Origin: a virus
Lineage: Duplodnaviria; Heunggongvirae; Uroviricota; Caudoviricetes
Virus record (IMG/VR): IMGVR_UViG_2703719355_000005
Strand: one strand, 5' to 3'
Length of the DNA: 10,434 nucleotides
This document shows, one piece after another, positions 1 through 10,434 of the stretch. Each line of letters starts with the position of its first letter. Positions within the stretch are counted from its first letter, which is position 1. The notes beneath the pieces are model-generated. The model ran no database searches. It was not told the DNA's origin and was given only the letters and a program-made list of their open reading frames with translations. Made by a program: the position numbers and the translations under genes.

Positions 1-1
1 A

Positions 2-241
2 TTTTTAGTCATCCTGTTTACCTCTTTCTCAGGGAGTTTAGTCTCCAGGATTTCCGGGGCGGTTCAATCCAGTACGCTTGATTCCATCCCTTTATCCATG
101 CAACGACAGTTTCCTGATTTAACACCGCGCCATCTTGACCATCTGAAAACCCTTATTGCGAAGGGGGCAAATCAGTGTGCGCGGGCGGGGGATAAATTAC
201 CGGATTTACTCGATGAATATATCAGAGCAACAACTGAATAA
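2..241 (+). CDS. nu1: Terminase small subunit, C-terminal fragment (lambda Nu1-like); 5' end lies outside the window
   Basis: Frame 2 is open from the window edge to TAA at 239-241. Its translation ...PLSMQRQFPDLTPRHLDHLKTLIAKGANQCARAGDKLPDLLDEYIRATTE resembles the lambda Nu1 C-terminus as I recall it (...PLSVQRRFPELENRHVDFLKRDIIKAMNKAAALDELIPGLLSEYIEQSG). It overlaps the terminase large subunit start, as in lambda. Confidence 0.8.
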   Translation, partial: FLVILFTSFSGSLVSRISGAVQSSTLDSIPLSMQRQFPDLTPRHLDHLKTLIAKGANQCARAGDKLPDLLDEYIRATTE

Positions 242-3920: not shown

Positions 3921-5415
3921 TCTTTCACACATTATTGCCGCAGCATTCAATGAACCGCTGCTTCTGGAGCCCGCCTATGCGCGGGTTTTCTTTTGCGCGC
4001 TGGGGCGCGAGATGGGGGCAGCAAGTCTTTCGGTACCACAACAACAGGTACAGCTTGATGCTTCCGGAATGCTGGCTGAAACGGACGAGTACATGGCCGG
4101 AGGTAAACGACCGGCCCGTGTTTACCGGGTGGTGAACGGTATTGCGGTACTGCCGGTGACCGGCACGCTGGTGCACCGGCTGGGGGGGATGCGGCCATTT
4201 TCCGGAATGACAGGCTATGACGGTATTGTCGCCTGTCTTCAGCAGGCAATGGCAGATAGCCAGGTGCGGGGCATACTGCTGGACATTGACAGTCCGGGCG
4301 GGCAGGCCGCCGGCGCGTTTGACTGCGCTGACATGATTTACCGCCTCCGGCAGCAGAAGCCGGTCTGGGCACTGTGCAATGACACGGCCTGTTCTGCGGC
4401 CATGCTGCTGGCGTCGGCCTGCTCCCGACGGCTGGTTACCCAGACATCCCGTATCGGCTCCATTGGCGTGATGATGAGCCATGTCAGCTATGCCGGTCAT
4501 CTGGCGCAGGCCGGGGTGGATATCACGCTGATTTATGCCGGGGCGCACAAGGTGGATGGCAATCAGTTTGAAGCGTTGCCGGCAGAGGTTCGCCAGGACA
4601 TGCAGCAGCGGATTGATGCGGCGCGCCGGATGTTTGCCGAAAAAGTGGCGATGTATACCGGGTTGTCTGTTGATGCAGTCACGGGAACAGAGGCCGCCGT
4701 TTTTGAAGGTCAGTCCGGCATTGAGGCCGGACTGGCGGATGAATTAATCAATGCGTCGGATGCCATCAGTGTGATGGCCACGGCGCTGAACAGTAATGTC
4801 AGAGGAGGCACTATGCCGCAATTAACTGCAACGGAAGCCGCCGCGCAGGAGAACCAGCGAGTGATGGGGATCCTGACATGCCAGGAAGCGAAAGGACGTG
4901 AACAGCTTGCCACGATGCTGGCAGGACAACAGGGCATGAGCGTTGAACAGGCCCGGGCGATTCTGGCCGCGGCGGCACCGCAGCAGCCGGTGGCATCCGC
5001 GCAGAGTGAAGCCGATCGCATTATGGCGTGTGAAGAAGCGAAAGGTCGTGAACAACTGGCGGCAACGCTGGCGGCGATGCCGGAGATGACGGTGGAAAAA
5101 GCACGCCCGATCCTGGCGGCTGCACCACTGGCGGATGCCGGGCCCTCACTTCGTGATCAGATCATGGCCCTGGATGAGGCAAAAGGGGCAGAAGCGCAGG
5201 CTGAAAAACTGGCGGCCTGCCCGGGAATGACCGTGGAGAACGCCCGGGCTGTGCTGGCTGCGGGATCAGGTAAGGCCGAACCGGTCTCTGCATCCACAAC
5301 CGCCCTGTTTGAACATTTCATGGCGAATCATTCACCGGCAGCGGTGCGGGGTGGCGTGTCACAGACGTCAGCAGACGGTGATGCGGACGTGAAAATGCTC
5401 ATGGCCATGCCATGA
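3910..5415 (+). CDS. C: Prohead protease / scaffold fusion (lambda gpC-like, S49/ClpP-family serine peptidase domain), GTG start
   Basis: 501-aa ORF. N-terminal two-thirds resembles lambda gpC (NLSHIIAAAFNEPLLLEPAYARVFFCAL..., GIAVLPV.GTLV, DSPGG.AAGAFDCAD, VWAL.ND..CSA, GSIGVMM, LADEL.N..DAI). GTG start at 3910 overlaps the B stop, with GAGGAG upstream. The C-terminal third is the Nu3-like scaffold region. Confidence 0.9.
   Translation: MRRNLSHIIAAAFNEPLLLEPAYARVFFCALGREMGAASLSVPQQQVQLDASGMLAETDEYMAGGKRPARVYRVVNGIAVLPVTGTLVHRLGGMRPFSGMTGYDGIVACLQQAMADSQVRGILLDIDSPGGQAAGAFDCADMIYRLRQQKPVWALCNDTACSAAMLLASACSRRLVTQTSRIGSIGVMMSHVSYAGHLAQAGVDITLIYAGAHKVDGNQFEALPAEVRQDMQQRIDAARRMFAEKVAMYTGLSVDAVTGTEAAVFEGQSGIEAGLADELINASDAISVMATALNSNVRGGTMPQLTATEAAAQENQRVMGILTCQEAKGREQLATMLAGQQGMSVEQARAILAAAAPQQPVASAQSEADRIMACEEAKGREQLAATLAAMPEMTVEKARPILAAAPLADAGPSLRDQIMALDEAKGAEAQAEKLAACPGMTVENARAVLAAGSGKAEPVSASTTALFEHFMANHSPAAVRGGVSQTSADGDADVKMLMAMP
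4813..5415 (+). CDS. nu3: Putative nested scaffolding protein (lambda Nu3-like), in-frame internal start within C
   Basis: Strong Shine-Dalgarno AGAGGAGG at 4801-4808 followed by ATG at 4813, in the same frame as C. The position aligns with the lambda Nu3 start (..SGGRMTKETQ versus ..RGGTMPQLTA). In lambda, Nu3 is translated from an internal in-frame start in C. Confidence 0.6.
   Translation: MPQLTATEAAAQENQRVMGILTCQEAKGREQLATMLAGQQGMSVEQARAILAAAAPQQPVASAQSEADRIMACEEAKGREQLAATLAAMPEMTVEKARPILAAAPLADAGPSLRDQIMALDEAKGAEAQAEKLAACPGMTVENARAVLAAGSGKAEPVSASTTALFEHFMANHSPAAVRGGVSQTSADGDADVKMLMAMP
4855..5270 (+). repeat. Three tandem copies of an approximately 47-codon scaffold module inside C/Nu3 (period about 141-159 nt)
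   Basis: Protein-level repeats: (1) RVMGILTCQEAKGREQLATMLAGQQGMSVEQARAILAAAAP, (2) RIMACEEAKGREQLAATLAAMPEMTVEKARPILAAAPL, (3) QIMALDEAKGAEAQAEKLAACPGMTVENARAVLAAG. Similarity is also visible in the DNA (gaagcgaaagg.cgtgaaca at about 4884 and 5034). From memory, lambda has a single copy (SRIMGILNCEEAHGREEQARVLAETPGMTVKTARRILAAAPQ). Confidence 0.8.
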
Positions 5416-5807: not shown

Positions 5808-5827
5808 CAGGCCACCATGGTGGCCTG
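5808..5827 (+). promoter_or_regulatory. Perfect palindrome / hairpin in the D-E intergenic region (8-bp stem CAGGCCAC/GTGGCCTG, loop CATG)
   Basis: Read directly from sequence: caggccac catg gtggcctg. It is followed by only a weak T-run (gatttct), so it is more likely an RNA-stability or attenuation element than a strong terminator. Confidence 0.45.
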
Positions 5828-5949
5828 ACTGATTTCTGAATGAAAGGAACTGATTTATGGGATTGTTTACGACCCGCTAGTTACTCGGTTATACCGAACA
5901 AAAAGTTAAATTTCGTGCGCTGTTTCTGGAACTGTTTTTCCGCCGTACG

Positions 5950-6885
5950 GTGAATTTCCACACCGAAGAGGTGATGCTGGACAAAATTACCGGAAAAACG
6001 CCGGTGGCGGCCTATGTCTCCCCGGTCGTTGAAGGAAAAGTGCTGCGTCATCGTGGGGGTGAAACCCGCGTGTTACGTCCGGGCTACGTCAAGCCGAAAC
6101 ACGAATTTAATTACCAGCAGGCGGTTGAACGCCTTCCTGGTGAAGATCCGGCTCAACTGAACGATCCGGCTTACCGCCGTCTGCGTATCATTACCGATAA
6201 CCTCAAACAGGAAGAGCACGCGATTGTCCAGGTGGAAGAAATACAGGCGGTAAATGCTGTGTTGTATGGCAAATATACGATGGAAGGAGACCAGTTCGAG
6301 AAAATTGAGGTCGATTTTGGCAGGTCGACGAAGAATAACATCACTCAGGGTAGTGGTAAGGAGTGGTCAAAACAGGATCGTGACACGTTCGATCCTACAC
6401 ATGATCTTGACCTCTACTGCGACCAGGCCAGCGGTCTTGTGAATATTGCCATTATGGACGGTACCGTCTGGCGTCTTCTGAATGGTTTTAAGCTGTTCCG
6501 CGAAAAACTGGATACCCGTCGCGGTTCAAATTCTCAACTCGAAACGGCAGTGAAAGATCTGGGCGCAGTGGTGTCCTTCAAGGGGTATTACGGCGATCTG
6601 GCCATTGTGGTGGCGAAAACGTCTTATATAGCAGAAGACGGTATCGAAAAACGTTATCTGCCGGAGGGCATGCTGGTTCTGGGGAATACTGCTGCAGATG
6701 GGATCCGTTGTTACGGTGCCATTCAGGATGCGCAGGCGTTGTCCGAAGGTGTGGTGGCCTCTTCCCGTTATCCGAAACACTGGCTGACGGTGGGGGATCC
6801 CGCCCGTGAATTTACCATGACGCAGTCCGCGCCGCTGATGGTGTTGCCGGACCCGGATGAGTTTGTGGTGGTACAGGTGAAATAA
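5950..6885 (+). CDS. E: Major capsid protein (lambda gpE-like). The conserved N-terminal codons continue upstream to ATG 5857 but are interrupted by an in-frame TAG at 5878-5880, so this may be an amber allele or pseudogene
   Basis: The open frame from GTG 5950 encodes ...YVSPVVEGKVLRHRGGET...PGYVKPKHE...DPAYRR.RII...GKYTM.G...RGSNS.LETAVKDLG...TGDPAREFTM.QSAPLM, matching lambda gpE. The same frame upstream reads MGLFTTR*LLGYTEQKVKFRALFLELFFRR, which aligns with lambda MSMYTTAQLLAANEQKFKFDPLFLRLFFRE. A Shine-Dalgarno AAGGA lies 8 nt before ATG 5857. Confidence 0.85.
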   Translation: MNFHTEEVMLDKITGKTPVAAYVSPVVEGKVLRHRGGETRVLRPGYVKPKHEFNYQQAVERLPGEDPAQLNDPAYRRLRIITDNLKQEEHAIVQVEEIQAVNAVLYGKYTMEGDQFEKIEVDFGRSTKNNITQGSGKEWSKQDRDTFDPTHDLDLYCDQASGLVNIAIMDGTVWRLLNGFKLFREKLDTRRGSNSQLETAVKDLGAVVSFKGYYGDLAIVVAKTSYIAEDGIEKRYLPEGMLVLGNTAADGIRCYGAIQDAQALSEGVVASSRYPKHWLTVGDPAREFTMTQSAPLMVLPDPDEFVVVQVK

Positions 6886-8647: not shown

Positions 8648-9400
8648 ATGCCAACACCAAATCCTCTGGCACCGGTAAAAGGTGCCGGTACCACCCTGTG
8701 GGTTTATAACGGTCAGGGTGATGCCTATGCAAACCCGTTGTCAGACGATAACTGGCAGCGACTGGCACAGGTAAAGGATCTGACGCCGGGCGAGATGACG
8801 GCAGAACCCTACGATGATAACTACCTGGATGATGAAGACGCGGACTGGACTGCGACCGGGCAGGGGCAGAAATCTGCAGGTGATACCAGTTTTACGCTGG
8901 CCTGGAAACCGGGAGAGGAAGGCCAGAAAGGGCTTATAGGCTGGTTTGAAAGCGGCGATGTCCGGGCCTATAAAATCCGTTTTCCGAATGGCACGGTGGA
9001 TGTGTTTCGTGGCTGGGTCAGCAGTATCGGTAAGGCCGTGACGGCGAAAGAAGTGATCACCCGCACGGTGAAAGTGACCAACGTGGGTAAACCTTCTGTA
9101 GCGGAAGAACGCAGCAAAATTACGCCGGTCAGTGCGATTAAGGTGACGCCGACATCCGGTACGGTGGCAAAAGGGAAAACAACCACCCTGACGGTTTCTT
9201 TTGAGCCGGAAAGTGCAACCGACAAAACGTTCAGAGCGGTTTCCGCCGATCCGTCAACGGGAACCATTGCTGTGAAAGATATGGCGATCACTGTGACGGG
9301 GGTTAAGGCTGGAAAAGTGAGTATCCCCGTGATTTCCGGTAATGGTCAGTTTGCCACGGTAGCTGAAGTCACCGTTACTGAAGCGGGCGCTGCAGGGTAA
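8648..9400 (+). CDS. V: Major tail protein V (lambda gpV-like) with a C-terminal Ig-like (Big_2-type) domain
   Basis: 250-aa ORF in the V position. The N-terminal domain resembles lambda gpV. The C-terminal roughly 90 residues (about 9110-9400; ...[30 protein letters not shown]...[13 protein letters not shown]...) have the beta-rich, T/V/S-rich pattern of the Ig-like domain known at the lambda gpV C-terminus. GAGGA lies before the ATG. Confidence 0.92.
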
Positions 9401-9413
9401 ACGGAGGTAATAC

Positions 9414-9845
9414 ATGTTTCTGAAAACCGAACAATTTGAATATAACGGTGTGTCCGTCACGCTTTCCGAGCTGTCTGCGCTGCAGCGTATCGAGCATCTT
9501 GCCCTGCTGAAACGACGGGCAGAACAGGCTGAAGCCAGCGGTAACCTGCAGGTGAGCGTGGAAGACCTTGTCAGAACCGGCGCGTTTCTGGTGGCGATGT
9601 CCCTGTGGCATAACCATCCACAGAAAACGGAGTCACCGTCAATGAATGAGGCCGTGATGAAGATAGAGCAGGAAGTGCTCACCACCTGGCCTGCCGATGC
9701 CATTGCCCGGGCGGAAGACGTGGTGTTGTGCCTGTCCGGGATGATCGAAGCTGTTCGTCCGGATACTGATATTACTGAAGTGGCGAAAAATAACACGCTG
9801 ACTGATGATGATTTTTCTGCGGGAAAGTCTTCGACGGCGAGCTGA
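9414..9845 (+). CDS. G: Tail assembly chaperone G (lambda gpG-like)
   Basis: 143 aa; MFLKTEQFEYNGVSVTLSELSALQRIEHLALLKRRAEQAE...TGAFLVAMSLWHNHPQKT..PSMNEAV..IEQEVLTTWP is near-identical in pattern to lambda gpG. GGAGGT precedes the ATG. Confidence 0.92.
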   Translation: MFLKTEQFEYNGVSVTLSELSALQRIEHLALLKRRAEQAEASGNLQVSVEDLVRTGAFLVAMSLWHNHPQKTESPSMNEAVMKIEQEVLTTWPADAIARAEDVVLCLSGMIEAVRPDTDITEVAKNNTLTDDDFSAGKSSTAS

Positions 9846-10285
9846 ACTTTGCCCTCAGACTGGCGCGTGAGATGGGGAGACCCGACTGGCGCGCCATGCT
9901 TGCCGGGATGACATCCACCGAATATGCCGACTGGCACCGTTTTTACCGCACGCATTATTTTCAGGATACCCAGCTGGATATGCATTTTTCCGGGCTGACG
10001 TACGCTGTACTCAGCCTGTTTTTTTGCGATCCGGATATGCATCCCTCTGATTTCAGTCTGCTTGTCCCCCGGCATGAGGAAGAGCAGGTGGAGAGGCTGG
10101 ATGAGGACAAAATGCTGATGCAGAAAGCGGCAGGACTTGCCGGAGGCGTCCGGTTCGGTGGGGACGGAGGGCGCGATATTTTATCGTCTGCGGATGTGGC
10201 GGATGTCATGGTGGATGATGCCGCATTAATGATGGCTTCAGCGGGGATTTCCGGAGGTGTGAGATATGTCCCAGCCGGTTGGTGA
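9414..10285 (+). CDS. Tail assembly chaperone G-T fusion, made by -1 frameshift at 9821-9827 (G frame 9414-9827, then T frame 9827-10285)
   Basis: The T frame (position mod 3 = 2) is exactly -1 relative to G (mod 3 = 0) and is open through the slip site to TGA at 10283-10285. Arrangement is conserved in lambda and many other tailed phages. Confidence 0.8.
9821..9827 (+). other. Programmed -1 ribosomal frameshift slippery heptamer G_GGA_AAG (G/G-T)
   Basis: gggaaag at 9821-9827, with GGA and AAG as zero-frame codons 22 nt before the G stop. The -1 frame continues as VFDGELNFALRLAREMGRPDWRAMLAGMTSTEYADWHRF..., which matches the lambda gpGT junction and T sequence. Confidence 0.85.
9827..10285 (+). 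CDS. T: T-frame segment of the tail assembly protein (lambda gpT-like), expected to be expressed only as the G-T fusion
   Basis: Open -1 frame encoding VFDGELNFALRLAREMGRPDWRAMLAGMTSTEYADWHRFYRTHYFQDTQLDMHFSGLTYAVLSLFFCDPDMHPSDF... The first ATG (9872) has no convincing independent RBS. Confidence 0.75.
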   Translation, partial: VFDGELNFALRLAREMGRPDWRAMLAGMTSTEYADWHRFYRTHYFQDTQLDMHFSGLTYAVLSLFFCDPDMHPSDFSLLVPRHEEEQVERLDEDKMLMQKAAGLAGGVRFGGDGGRDILSSADVADVMVDDAALMMASAGISGGVRYVPAGW

Positions 10286-10434
10286 TCTTGTTATTGACCT
10301 TAGTCTGGATGCGGTCCGTTTCGATGAGCAGATGAGCCGGGTAAGGCGTCATTTTTCAGGTCTGGATACCGACGCCAGAAAAACCGCCACTGCTGTTGAA
10401 CAGGGCCTGAGCCGTCAGGCGCTGGCTGCGCAAA
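10267..10434 (+). CDS. H: Tail tape measure protein, N-terminal fragment (lambda gpH-like); continues beyond the window
   Basis: MSQPVGDLVIDLSLDAVRFDEQMSRVRRHFSGLDTDARKTATAVEQGLSRQALAAQ matches the lambda gpH N-terminus (MAEPVGDLVVDLSLDAARFDEQMARVRRHFSG...SLSRQALAAQ). GGAGGTG lies upstream and the ATG overlaps the 3' end of the T frame. Confidence 0.92.

What the first reader, a model, noticed from the sequence alone, without database searches (positions are those of the whole stretch)
9821..9830. Conserved G/G-T -1 programmed frameshift site
The slippery heptamer G GGA AAG sits 22 nt upstream of the G stop, and the -1 frame is open across it and encodes a gpT-like sequence. This is the canonical tail-assembly-chaperone frameshift of lambda-like phages and sets the G to G-T ratio needed for tape-measure-dependent tail assembly. 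The site is often missed in automated annotation, leaving T as an orphan ORF with no start.
Basis: partly seen in the sequence, partly recalled or inferred. Interest (0 to 1): 0.45.

Follow-up and report, generated by a model that had tools for sequence, protein, structure and literature searches.

The report
Lambda-type G/G-T tail chaperone frameshift
This is the textbook -1 ribosomal frameshift site of a lambda-like E. coli prophage, where a few percent of ribosomes slip on G GGA AAG to fuse tail chaperone G to domain T; it is real but already well known.

Summary
GGGAAAG lies at 9821-9827, phased G_GGA_AAG in the G gene (9414-9845), with its first base 22 nt before the G stop codon. The -1 frame is open from 9812 to 10285. 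It encodes a 152-residue T domain that is 73% identical to lambda T and matches PF06223 and TIGR01715. G is 67% identical to lambda G and matches PF06894 and TIGR01674. Lambda has the same heptamer at the same distance from its G stop.

In 188 of 188 related loci an N_NNA_AAG site lies exactly 11 codons before the conserved LARE motif of T. T-frame residues are conserved from the first codon after the slip, while the first possible start codon moves between codons 6, 10, 16 and 24. G and H have GGAGG ribosome-binding sites and T has none. The window sits in a V-G-T-H tail module of an E. coli prophage.

Nothing here is new. The only open lead is a predicted stem-loop starting 8 nt 3' of the heptamer, for which the evidence is equivocal. 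Frameshifting itself was shown experimentally in lambda, not here.

The parts
9403..9407 (+). GGAGG ribosome-binding site of G, 6 nt before ATG 9414
   Evidence: Read directly from the sequence.
9414..9845 (+). G gene (zero frame), 143 aa, tail assembly chaperone G
   Evidence: ORF list and translation. PF06894 E 1.3e-50. TIGR01674 equivalog, 165 bits. 67% identical to lambda G.
9803..9811 (+). TGA TGA TGA in the -1 frame (GAT GAT GAT = DDD in the G frame). This is the last block of -1-frame stops before the slip site.
9821..9827 (+). Slippery heptamer G_GGA_AAG (Gly-Lys in both frames)
   Evidence: Identical to the lambda site. The homologous position is occupied by N_NNA_AAG in 188 of 188 loci.
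9843..9845 (+). G stop codon TGA, 5 codons after the AAG codon
9827..10285 (+). T segment in the -1 frame: 152 codons plus the stop, VFDGELNFALRLAREMGRPDW...GGVRYVPAGW. The first codon is GTC, which is not a start codon.
   Evidence: PF06223 E 1.9e-13. TIGR01715, 210 bits, with the model starting at residue 5. 73% identical to lambda T. phrog_32165, a 290-position profile, matches G at positions 1-142 and T at 140-290.
9872..9874 (+). First ATG in the T frame (codon 16 after the slip). Databases use it as the T start. It has no Shine-Dalgarno sequence at a usable distance.
   Evidence: The upstream 18 nt are CTCAGACTGGCGCGTGAG.
9836..9904 (+). Predicted RNA stem-loop starting 8 nt 3' of the heptamer. 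The outer helix pairs 9836-9842 with 9898-9904 and the inner hairpin pairs 9861-9876 with 9881-9896. Its status is unproven.
   Evidence: z -3.65. Consensus fold. Pair counts. No excess synonymous conservation.
10253..10268 (+). GGAGG ribosome-binding site (10253-10257) and ATG (10266-10268) of the tape measure gene H. H overlaps the end of T by 20 nt.
   Evidence: Sequence. RefSeq annotation of the 99.9% identical locus.
8648..9400 (+). Major tail protein V gene, immediately upstream of G

Best explanation
The window carries the G-T tail assembly chaperone locus of a lambda-like E. coli prophage. Ribosomes start at ATG 9414 and translate G. Most terminate at TGA 9843 and give gpG (143 aa).

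When GGA (Gly) is in the P site and AAG (Lys) is in the A site, a small fraction of ribosomes slip one base back, so the two tRNAs re-pair with GGG and AAA. In lambda this fraction is about 4%. Those ribosomes read on from GTC at 9827 in the -1 frame to TGA 10283-10285. The product is a 290-aa gpG-T fusion (138 + 152 residues).

By analogy with lambda, the G part binds the tape measure protein H and the T part recruits the major tail protein V. The roughly 30:1 G:GT ratio set by the slip frequency is needed for correct tail assembly, and neither protein ends up in the virion.

Shown here: the anatomy, the family membership, the conservation of the site, and the lack of an independent start for the conserved N-terminus of T. 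Inferred from the lambda experiments: that the slip occurs, how often it occurs, and the assembly role.
For: - Phase and position of the heptamer, and an open -1 frame.
- G and T family hits above curated cutoffs. A 290-position PHROG profile spans both parts.
- 67% and 73% identity to lambda G and T, with the identical heptamer and the same 15-nt distance to the stop.
- Gene order V-G-T-H.
- 188 of 188 related loci have N_NNA_AAG exactly 11 codons before the LARE motif: 181 GGGAAAG, 6 GGAAAAG and 1 AAAAAAG.
- In G homologues down to 28% identity, the Lys codon at the junction is invariant and the fusion alignment is gapless across it for 6 of the 7 aligned sequences, with a single-residue offset in PSTCR8lys.
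- T-frame residues 1-15 are conserved, while the first possible start codon falls at codon 6, 10, 16 or 24 in different phages. In the window the first T codon is GTC.
- G and H have GGAGG sites and T has none.
- Curated records annotate the joined product or the slippery sequence: phage 21, phi80 and N15.
- Literature: PMC3296357 (GGGAAAG, about 96% zero frame); PMC5009743 (30:1 ratio, roles of the G and T parts, G_GGA_AAG highly shift-prone in E. coli).
Against: There is no experimental evidence for this allele. The prophage has an amber codon at codon 8 of its major capsid gene, so it may be defective and the site may not currently be under selection in this host. Major databases annotate T as an independent ORF, although that follows from ORF-calling rules and is not evidence.
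Confidence: 0.93

Rival explanations
1. The same -1 slip occurs on G_GGA_AAG, but its frequency is tuned by an RNA stem-loop that starts 8 nt downstream (window 9836-9904). This would be a refinement of the accepted picture of an unstimulated slip. It is not an alternative to the frameshift itself.
For: - The 100 nt 3' of the heptamer fold at -41.4 kcal/mol, z -3.65, with 0 of 200 shuffles folding as well.
- The same architecture is predicted in lambda, a Stx1 phage, N15 and mEp043.
- The consensus fold has 20 pairs, 95% of cells are paired across 22 distinct sequences, 5 pairs show changes on both sides, and 0 of 500 shuffles reach the observed values.
- The outer helix is paired 6/6 in 55 of 57 distinct sequences. 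Pair 9836/9904 is G-C in 23 and A-T in 32, with no G-T or A-C intermediates.
- An 8-nt spacer is in the usual range for -1 frameshift stimulators (general knowledge).
Against: - Synonymous-site conservation inside the structure (0.60) is barely above that of the following 40 codons (0.54).
- The region encodes the most conserved peptide of T, LAREMGRPDWRAMLAG. Most changes are C/U transitions opposite G, which keep a pair without any selection for structure.
- The compensatory changes may trace to one or two events in related sequences.
- The inner hairpin is lost in the L195-type clade (7/14 pairs). The whole fold is absent in mEp460 and only partly kept in PSTCR8lys (inner hairpin 10/14 pairs), and the 100 nt fold no better than shuffles in either (z about -0.9).
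- The structure was derived from these same sequences.
Confidence: 0.25
2. T is made independently by initiation at ATG 9872, as RefSeq and GenBank annotate it, and the heptamer is incidental.
For: An ATG exists at 9872 in the T frame, and automated pipelines call a 137-aa protein from it. That protein is in public databases.
Against: - There is no Shine-Dalgarno motif at a usable distance. The upstream sequence is CTCAGACTGGCGCGTGAG, whereas G and H have GGAGG 6-8 nt upstream.
- The 15 T-frame codons before the ATG are conserved at the protein level, and the TIGR01715 model starts at residue 5.
- Relatives have Phe in place of this Met (LAREFGRP). Their first start codon lies at codon 6, 10 or 24.
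- From my own recollection of Levin et al. 1993, which I could not read here: T sequence is made in lambda only as the G-T fusion.
Confidence: 0.04
3. The -1 shift arises at the RNA level by transcriptional slippage of RNA polymerase on the A run, not by ribosomal slippage.
For: Transcriptional slippage produces frameshifted products in some bacterial and phage genes (PMC5009743). The Stx1-phage homologue has A_AAA_AAG at this position.
Against: The window has only three consecutive A residues, GGGAAAG. That is far shorter than the homopolymer runs known to support polymerase slippage (general knowledge). In lambda the frequency depends on tRNA-Lys U34 modification, which points to the ribosome (PMC3296357).
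Confidence: 0.02

Closest known systems
Bacteriophage lambda G / G-T programmed -1 ribosomal frameshift (Levin, Hendrix and Casjens 1993; Xu, Hendrix and Duda 2004, 2013, 2014, as cited in PMC5009743)
   Same: - Identical heptamer G_GGA_AAG and identical flanking TTCTGC...T.
- Same 15-nt distance from the heptamer to a TGA stop.
- Same Gly-Lys junction.
- G is 67% and T is 73% identical to the lambda proteins.
- Same V-G-T-H gene order.
   Different: - The C-terminal tail of G before the slip site is diverged and 3 residues longer (…NNTLTDDDFSAGK against …AGPAEPVSAGK).
- The first T-frame codon is GTC, not lambda's GTG.
- The -1 frame opens only 3 codons before the heptamer, against 13 in lambda.
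- T is 8 residues longer and overlaps H by 20 nt, against 8 nt in lambda.
N15 / phi80 / HK225-type G-T frameshift sites (annotated 'slippery sequence for -1 translational frameshift' in AF064539 and FN582354)
   Same: Homologous G and T families. The slip site is at the homologous codon, with A_AAG in the A site. The G stop is again GAGC TGA, 15 nt downstream.
   Different: These phages use G_GAA_AAG, in which the P-site re-pairing is imperfect. They also have a shorter T that lacks the duplicated C-terminal motif.
E. coli dnaX -1 frameshift (A_AAA_AAG with an upstream SD-like element and a downstream stem-loop)
   Same: A bacterial -1 slip with Lys AAG in the A site, decoded by the single tRNA-Lys (UUU). 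A downstream stem-loop is predicted here as well.
   Different: - No SD-like element lies upstream of the heptamer.
- Efficiency in lambda is about 4% (PMC3296357), well below that of dnaX (general knowledge).
- The product here is an extension, not a truncation.
- The function of the downstream structure is unproven.

Membership tests
Lambda-type G/G-T tail assembly chaperone frameshift | Two overlapping ORFs lie between the major tail protein gene and the tape measure gene. | tested here: met
   V 8648-9400, G 9414-9845, T frame to 10285, H from 10266.
Lambda-type G/G-T tail assembly chaperone frameshift | The upstream ORF belongs to the gpG chaperone family. | tested here: met
   PF06894 E 1.3e-50. 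TIGR01674 equivalog, 165 bits against a cutoff of 74. 67% identical to lambda G.
Lambda-type G/G-T tail assembly chaperone frameshift | The downstream ORF is in the -1 frame and belongs to the gpT family. | tested here: met
   PF06223 E 1.9e-13. TIGR01715 equivalog, 210 bits against a cutoff of 77. 73% identical to lambda T.
Lambda-type G/G-T tail assembly chaperone frameshift | A slippery heptamer X_XXY_YYZ, phased with the upstream ORF, lies in the overlap near its 3' end. | tested here: met
   G_GGA_AAG at 9821-9827, 5 codons before the stop.
Lambda-type G/G-T tail assembly chaperone frameshift | The conserved N-terminus of T has no start codon or ribosome-binding site of its own. | tested here: met
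   The first T codon is GTC. The first ATG is at codon 16 and lacks a Shine-Dalgarno motif. The position of the first start codon is not conserved among relatives, although residues 1-15 are.
Lambda-type G/G-T tail assembly chaperone frameshift | The slip site is conserved at the homologous position in relatives. | tested here: met
   188 of 188 loci. Nine diverse phages with G down to 28% identity.
Lambda-type G/G-T tail assembly chaperone frameshift | A G-T fusion protein is actually made at a few percent of G, and both products are needed for tail assembly. | not testable with these tools
   Shown for lambda only (PMC3296357; PMC5009743). It needs proteomics or a reporter assay for this allele.
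Stimulated -1 PRF (dnaX-like) | An SD-like element lies about 10 nt upstream of the slip site. | tested here: not met
   The upstream sequence GATGATGATTTTTCTGCG has no GGAGG-like motif.
Stimulated -1 PRF (dnaX-like) | A conserved, functional stem-loop or pseudoknot lies 5-9 nt downstream. | tested here: inconclusive
   A stem-loop is predicted 8 nt downstream (z -3.65), with some covariation. There is no excess synonymous constraint, and it is not kept in all clades.

The most novel reading that the evidence does not exclude
The lambda-type G-T frameshift is held to need no stimulatory signal. It may in fact be tuned by a conserved mRNA stem-loop that begins 8 nt after the heptamer (window 9836-9904). 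The closing helix of that stem-loop is intact in 55 of 57 distinct lambda-, N15- and phi80-type sequences and shows one G-C/A-U covarying pair.
Probability: 0.2. Interest if true: 0.4.

Novelty: already known. Interest (0 to 1): 0.1.

Why it matters
For biology it adds nothing new. The G/G-T frameshift has been characterised in lambda since 1993 and is known to be conserved across long-tailed phages.

Its practical value is for annotation. For this very common E. coli prophage allele, public records list T as a stand-alone 137-aa protein. Exact G is on at least 1000 contigs, and related sequence is found in 3648 of 5426 complete E. coli genomes. The real 290-aa product is missing from a collection of about 15 billion proteins. 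A joined CDS with ribosomal slippage at 9827 would be the correct annotation.

The downstream stem-loop is a cheap, testable lead for anyone studying how the slip frequency is set.

Tried and rejected
1. Heptamer count as evidence. GGGAAAG occurs about as often as chance predicts (2 observed, 1.64 expected), so the argument rests on phase, context and conservation.
2. Rfam. No frameshift element or any other family was found near the site at E <= 1. The only hit is a chance-level sRNA match at 4711-4734.
3. Promoter and terminator scan of 9200-10434. Nothing was found, so there is no sign of a separate T transcript.
4. Ribosome collision at the G stop as a stimulator. The published effect peaks at 8-10 codons between A sites (PMC6815119). 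Here the AAG codon is only 6 codons from UGA, and the distance is 0-1 codon in mEp460 and PSTCR8lys. Rejected.
5. Upstream SD-like stimulator. None is present.
6. Solved structures. No PDB sequence matches the fusion at E <= 0.01.
7. Long antisense ORF 9254..10075 (273 aa). No hit in NCBIfam or PHROGs. Treated as spurious.
8. First collection scan with a wrongly counted spacer (12 N where 11 were needed) found nothing. It was corrected.
9. Xu et al. 2013 (PMC3762263) is not held, and Levin et al. 1993 is not in the library. What the primary papers say about downstream sequence effects therefore could not be checked. My recollection that Levin et al. saw a modest downstream effect is unverified.
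10. The search for related loci returned mostly near-identical prophages. Diversity came from tblastn against phage records and from a DNA pattern scan.

Full report
**Observation.** The sequence around the finding reads TTT TCT GCG GGA AAG TCT TCG ACG GCG AGC TGA. GGGAAAG occupies 9821-9827 and is phased G_GGA_AAG with the ORF 9414..9845 (143 aa). The stop TGA is at 9843-9845. The -1 frame is closed by TGA TGA TGA at 9803-9811, opens at 9812 and stays open to 10285. After a -1 slip the next codon is GTC at 9827, and the product continues VFDGELNFALRLAREMGRPDW... for 152 residues. The junction peptide ...SAGK/VFDGEL... is therefore correct, and no stop lies between 9827 and 9872.

The bare heptamer is not unusual (2 in the window, 1.64 expected). 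Among 47 XXXYYYZ heptamers (Y = A or T) in any phase on both strands, three pass loose length filters. Only the one at 9821 joins a recognised gene in the zero frame to a recognised -1 extension. The other two have ORFs I judge spurious as their zero frame.

**What the two reading frames encode.** The zero-frame protein matches PF06894 (lambda tail assembly chaperone G, E 1.3e-50) and the NCBIfam equivalog TIGR01674 (165 bits, cutoff 74). The -1 product matches PF06223 (minor tail protein T, E 1.9e-13) and the equivalog TIGR01715 (210 bits, cutoff 77). The TIGR01715 model starts at residue 5 of the -1 product, well before the first Met. A PHROG profile of 290 positions matches G at positions 1-142 and T at 140-290, and 290 aa is exactly the length predicted for the fusion here. 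G is 67% and T is 73% identical to the lambda proteins.

**Genomic context.** The window is 96.8% identical over 10.4 kb to a prophage in the E. coli Z1323CEC0019 chromosome, and 99.9% identical over the G-T region. The annotated order there is terminase, portal, protease, decoration protein, major capsid, FI, FII, Z, U, V, G, T, tape measure, and onward to J. Sequence related to the G-T region is found in 3648 of 5426 complete E. coli genomes.

**Comparison with lambda and other relatives.** In lambda (J02459) the same heptamer sits in the same context (TTCTGCGGGAAAGT), with the G stop again 15 nt downstream. The DNA upstream of the site, which encodes the C-terminal tail of G, is poorly conserved between the window and lambda. 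Conservation becomes high exactly at TTTCTGCGGGAAAG and stays high downstream.

I sampled G homologues down to 28% protein identity by tblastn and read nine loci. All have a -1 ORF that opens 22-82 nt before the G stop and encodes a T domain. All have A_AAG at the junction:
- G_GGA_AAG in lambda, phage 21 and the window;
- A_AAA_AAG in a Stx1 phage;
- G_GAA_AAG in N15, HK225, mEp043, phi80, mEp460 and Providencia phage PSTCR8lys.

In the last two the G stop follows 3 nt and 0 nt after the heptamer. Across 188 fetched loci that contain the T motif, every one has such a site exactly 11 codons before LARE (181 GGGAAAG, 6 GGAAAAG, 1 AAAAAAG). In the alignment of predicted fusions the junction Lys is invariant, and the alignment is gapless across the junction apart from a single-residue offset in PSTCR8lys.

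**Independent initiation of T.** In the window the first T-frame start codon is ATG 9872, at codon 16. It is preceded by CTCAGACTGGCGCGTGAG, which has no Shine-Dalgarno motif at a usable distance. G and H each have GGAGG 6-8 nt upstream of their ATG. In relatives the first start codon is at codon 6, 10, 16 or 24, and the window's Met is Phe in most of them (LAREFGRP). Residues 1-15 are nevertheless conserved (xLxxELxFxxxLARE). Lambda's first T-frame codon is GTG, which is how J02459 came to annotate T from the slip site. Here it is GTC, so even that nominal start is unavailable. The conserved N-terminus of T can be translated only by ribosomes arriving from G.

**Mechanism.** The published lambda work names GGGAAAG as the G/GT slippery sequence. 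It reports about 96% zero-frame reading, with Gly-Lys encoded in both frames and both Lys codons read by the single tRNA-Lys (UUU). The U34 thiolation state of that tRNA changes the slip frequency and the phage yield (PMC3296357). The Atkins 2016 review describes a roughly 30:1 gpG:gpGT ratio that is crucial for tail assembly. It says G and the G part of GT bind the tape measure protein and the T part binds the major tail protein, and that neither protein is in the virion. It also lists G_GGA_AAG among the highly shift-prone heptamers in E. coli (PMC5009743). By homology the same applies to the window. The slip itself, its frequency and the assembly role are inferred here, not shown.

**Annotation.** RefSeq's annotation of the 99.9% identical locus and GenBank PV340551 both list T as a separate 137-aa ORF starting at the ATG that corresponds to window 9872. 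Curated records for phage 21, phi80 and N15 annotate a joined product or the slippery sequence. The exact 290-aa fusion is not in the collection of about 15 billion proteins. The ATG-started T is there (an 1810-member cluster named 'phage tail assembly protein T'), and so is exact G, seen on at least 1000 contigs.

**A possible downstream RNA structure.** The 100 nt after the heptamer fold better than shuffled controls (-41.4 kcal/mol, z -3.65, 0 of 200 shuffles as good). The fold has an outer helix (9836-9842 with 9898-9904) that starts 8 nt after the heptamer. It encloses a hairpin (9861-9876 with 9881-9896).

Evidence for the structure:
- Lambda, the Stx1 phage, N15 and mEp043 give the same architecture.
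- A consensus fold has 20 pairs.
- On 22 distinct sequences, 95% of cells pair, five pairs show changes on both sides, and no shuffle of 500 reaches the observed values.
- With 57 distinct sequences the outer helix is intact in 55. Pair 9836/9904 is G-C in 23 and A-T in 32, with no intermediates.

Evidence against it:
- Synonymous-site conservation inside the structure (0.60) hardly exceeds that of the next 40 codons (0.54).
- The stretch encodes the most conserved peptide of T. Most substitutions are C/U transitions opposite G, which keep a pair without selection for structure.
- The inner hairpin is lost in one clade. The fold is absent in mEp460 and only partly kept in PSTCR8lys.
- The structure was derived from the same sequences on which it was tested.

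I could not read Levin et al. 1993 to see what their downstream deletions showed. I rate a functional role at about 0.2-0.25.

**Other stimulators considered.** There is no SD-like element upstream of the heptamer. A collision with a ribosome terminating at the G stop is unlikely to contribute. The published effect peaks at 8-10 codons between A sites (PMC6815119), and the distance here is 6 codons. Rfam has nothing at the site.

**Verdict.** The feature is a member of a thoroughly characterised family, so it is already known and of low interest. It has minor practical value for annotation, and the downstream stem-loop is one modest open lead.

Noticed in passing
window 5857-6885, codon 8 at 5878-5880: The major capsid gene has an amber stop (TAG) at codon 8, where phage 21 and the closest E. 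coli prophage have CAG (Gln). The difference is a single C-to-T change at 5878. None of the 1870 matching complete-genome records contains the exact 80-mer. The prophage may be defective, or this may be a sequencing error or an introduced mutation.
   Followed up: partly
window 9836-9904: A stem-loop is predicted 8 nt 3' of the slippery heptamer (z -3.65). Its outer helix is intact in 55 of 57 distinct related sequences and has one G-C/A-T covarying pair. Synonymous sites show no extra conservation, and the fold is not kept in all clades.
   Followed up: partly
window 9872-10285; also L003 10073-10486 and L002 1574-1987: Public annotation (RefSeq and a 2025 GenBank phage record) lists T as a stand-alone ORF starting at an internal ATG. 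The exact 290-aa G-T fusion is absent from the collection of about 15 billion proteins, while the truncated T sits in an 1810-member cluster.
   Followed up: yes
window 9803-9811: Three consecutive TGA codons lie in the -1 frame (GAT GAT GAT in the G frame), ending 9 nt before the slip site. Lambda has 13 open -1 codons before its heptamer.
   Followed up: no
window 10083-10285 (C-terminal third of T): Lambda-type T proteins (window, lambda, Stx1 phage) carry a second copy of the C-terminal motif LMxxAxGxxGGVR[FY] (MLMQKAAGLAGGVRFG, then ALMMASAGISGGVRYV). N15-, phi80- and mEp460-type T proteins end after the first copy. TIGR01715 also reports two matched stretches.
   Followed up: no
L106-L111 (N15, HK225, mEp043, phi80, mEp460, PSTCR8lys): Relatives use G_GAA_AAG at the homologous position. 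This is not a perfect X_XXY_YYZ heptamer, so a strict heptamer scan misses it. In mEp460 and PSTCR8lys the G stop follows the heptamer by only 3 nt and 0 nt.
   Followed up: partly
L007-L019 (genome contigs): Short or low-coverage contigs in assemblies of Neobacillus, Oceanobacillus, Kitasatospora, Pseudomonas, Shewanella, Leeuwenhoekiella, Pseudoxanthomonas and others carry a G gene at the same 67% identity to the window as lambda G. Seventeen fetched loci share a slip region identical to lambda's, although I did not check which loci these are. This looks like lambda DNA contamination of those assemblies.
   Followed up: partly
window 5809-5828: A perfect 20-nt palindrome, CAGGCCACCATGGTGGCCTG, lies in the gap between the decoration protein gene (ends 5799) and the major capsid gene (starts 5857).
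   Followed up: no
window 9254-10075, minus strand: A 273-aa ATG-started ORF runs antisense to the end of V, all of G and the start of T. It has no hit in NCBIfam or PHROGs and is probably spurious.
   Followed up: partly
window 1-66: The first 66 bases did not align to the closest phage and E. coli records, which match from base 67 onward.
   Followed up: no
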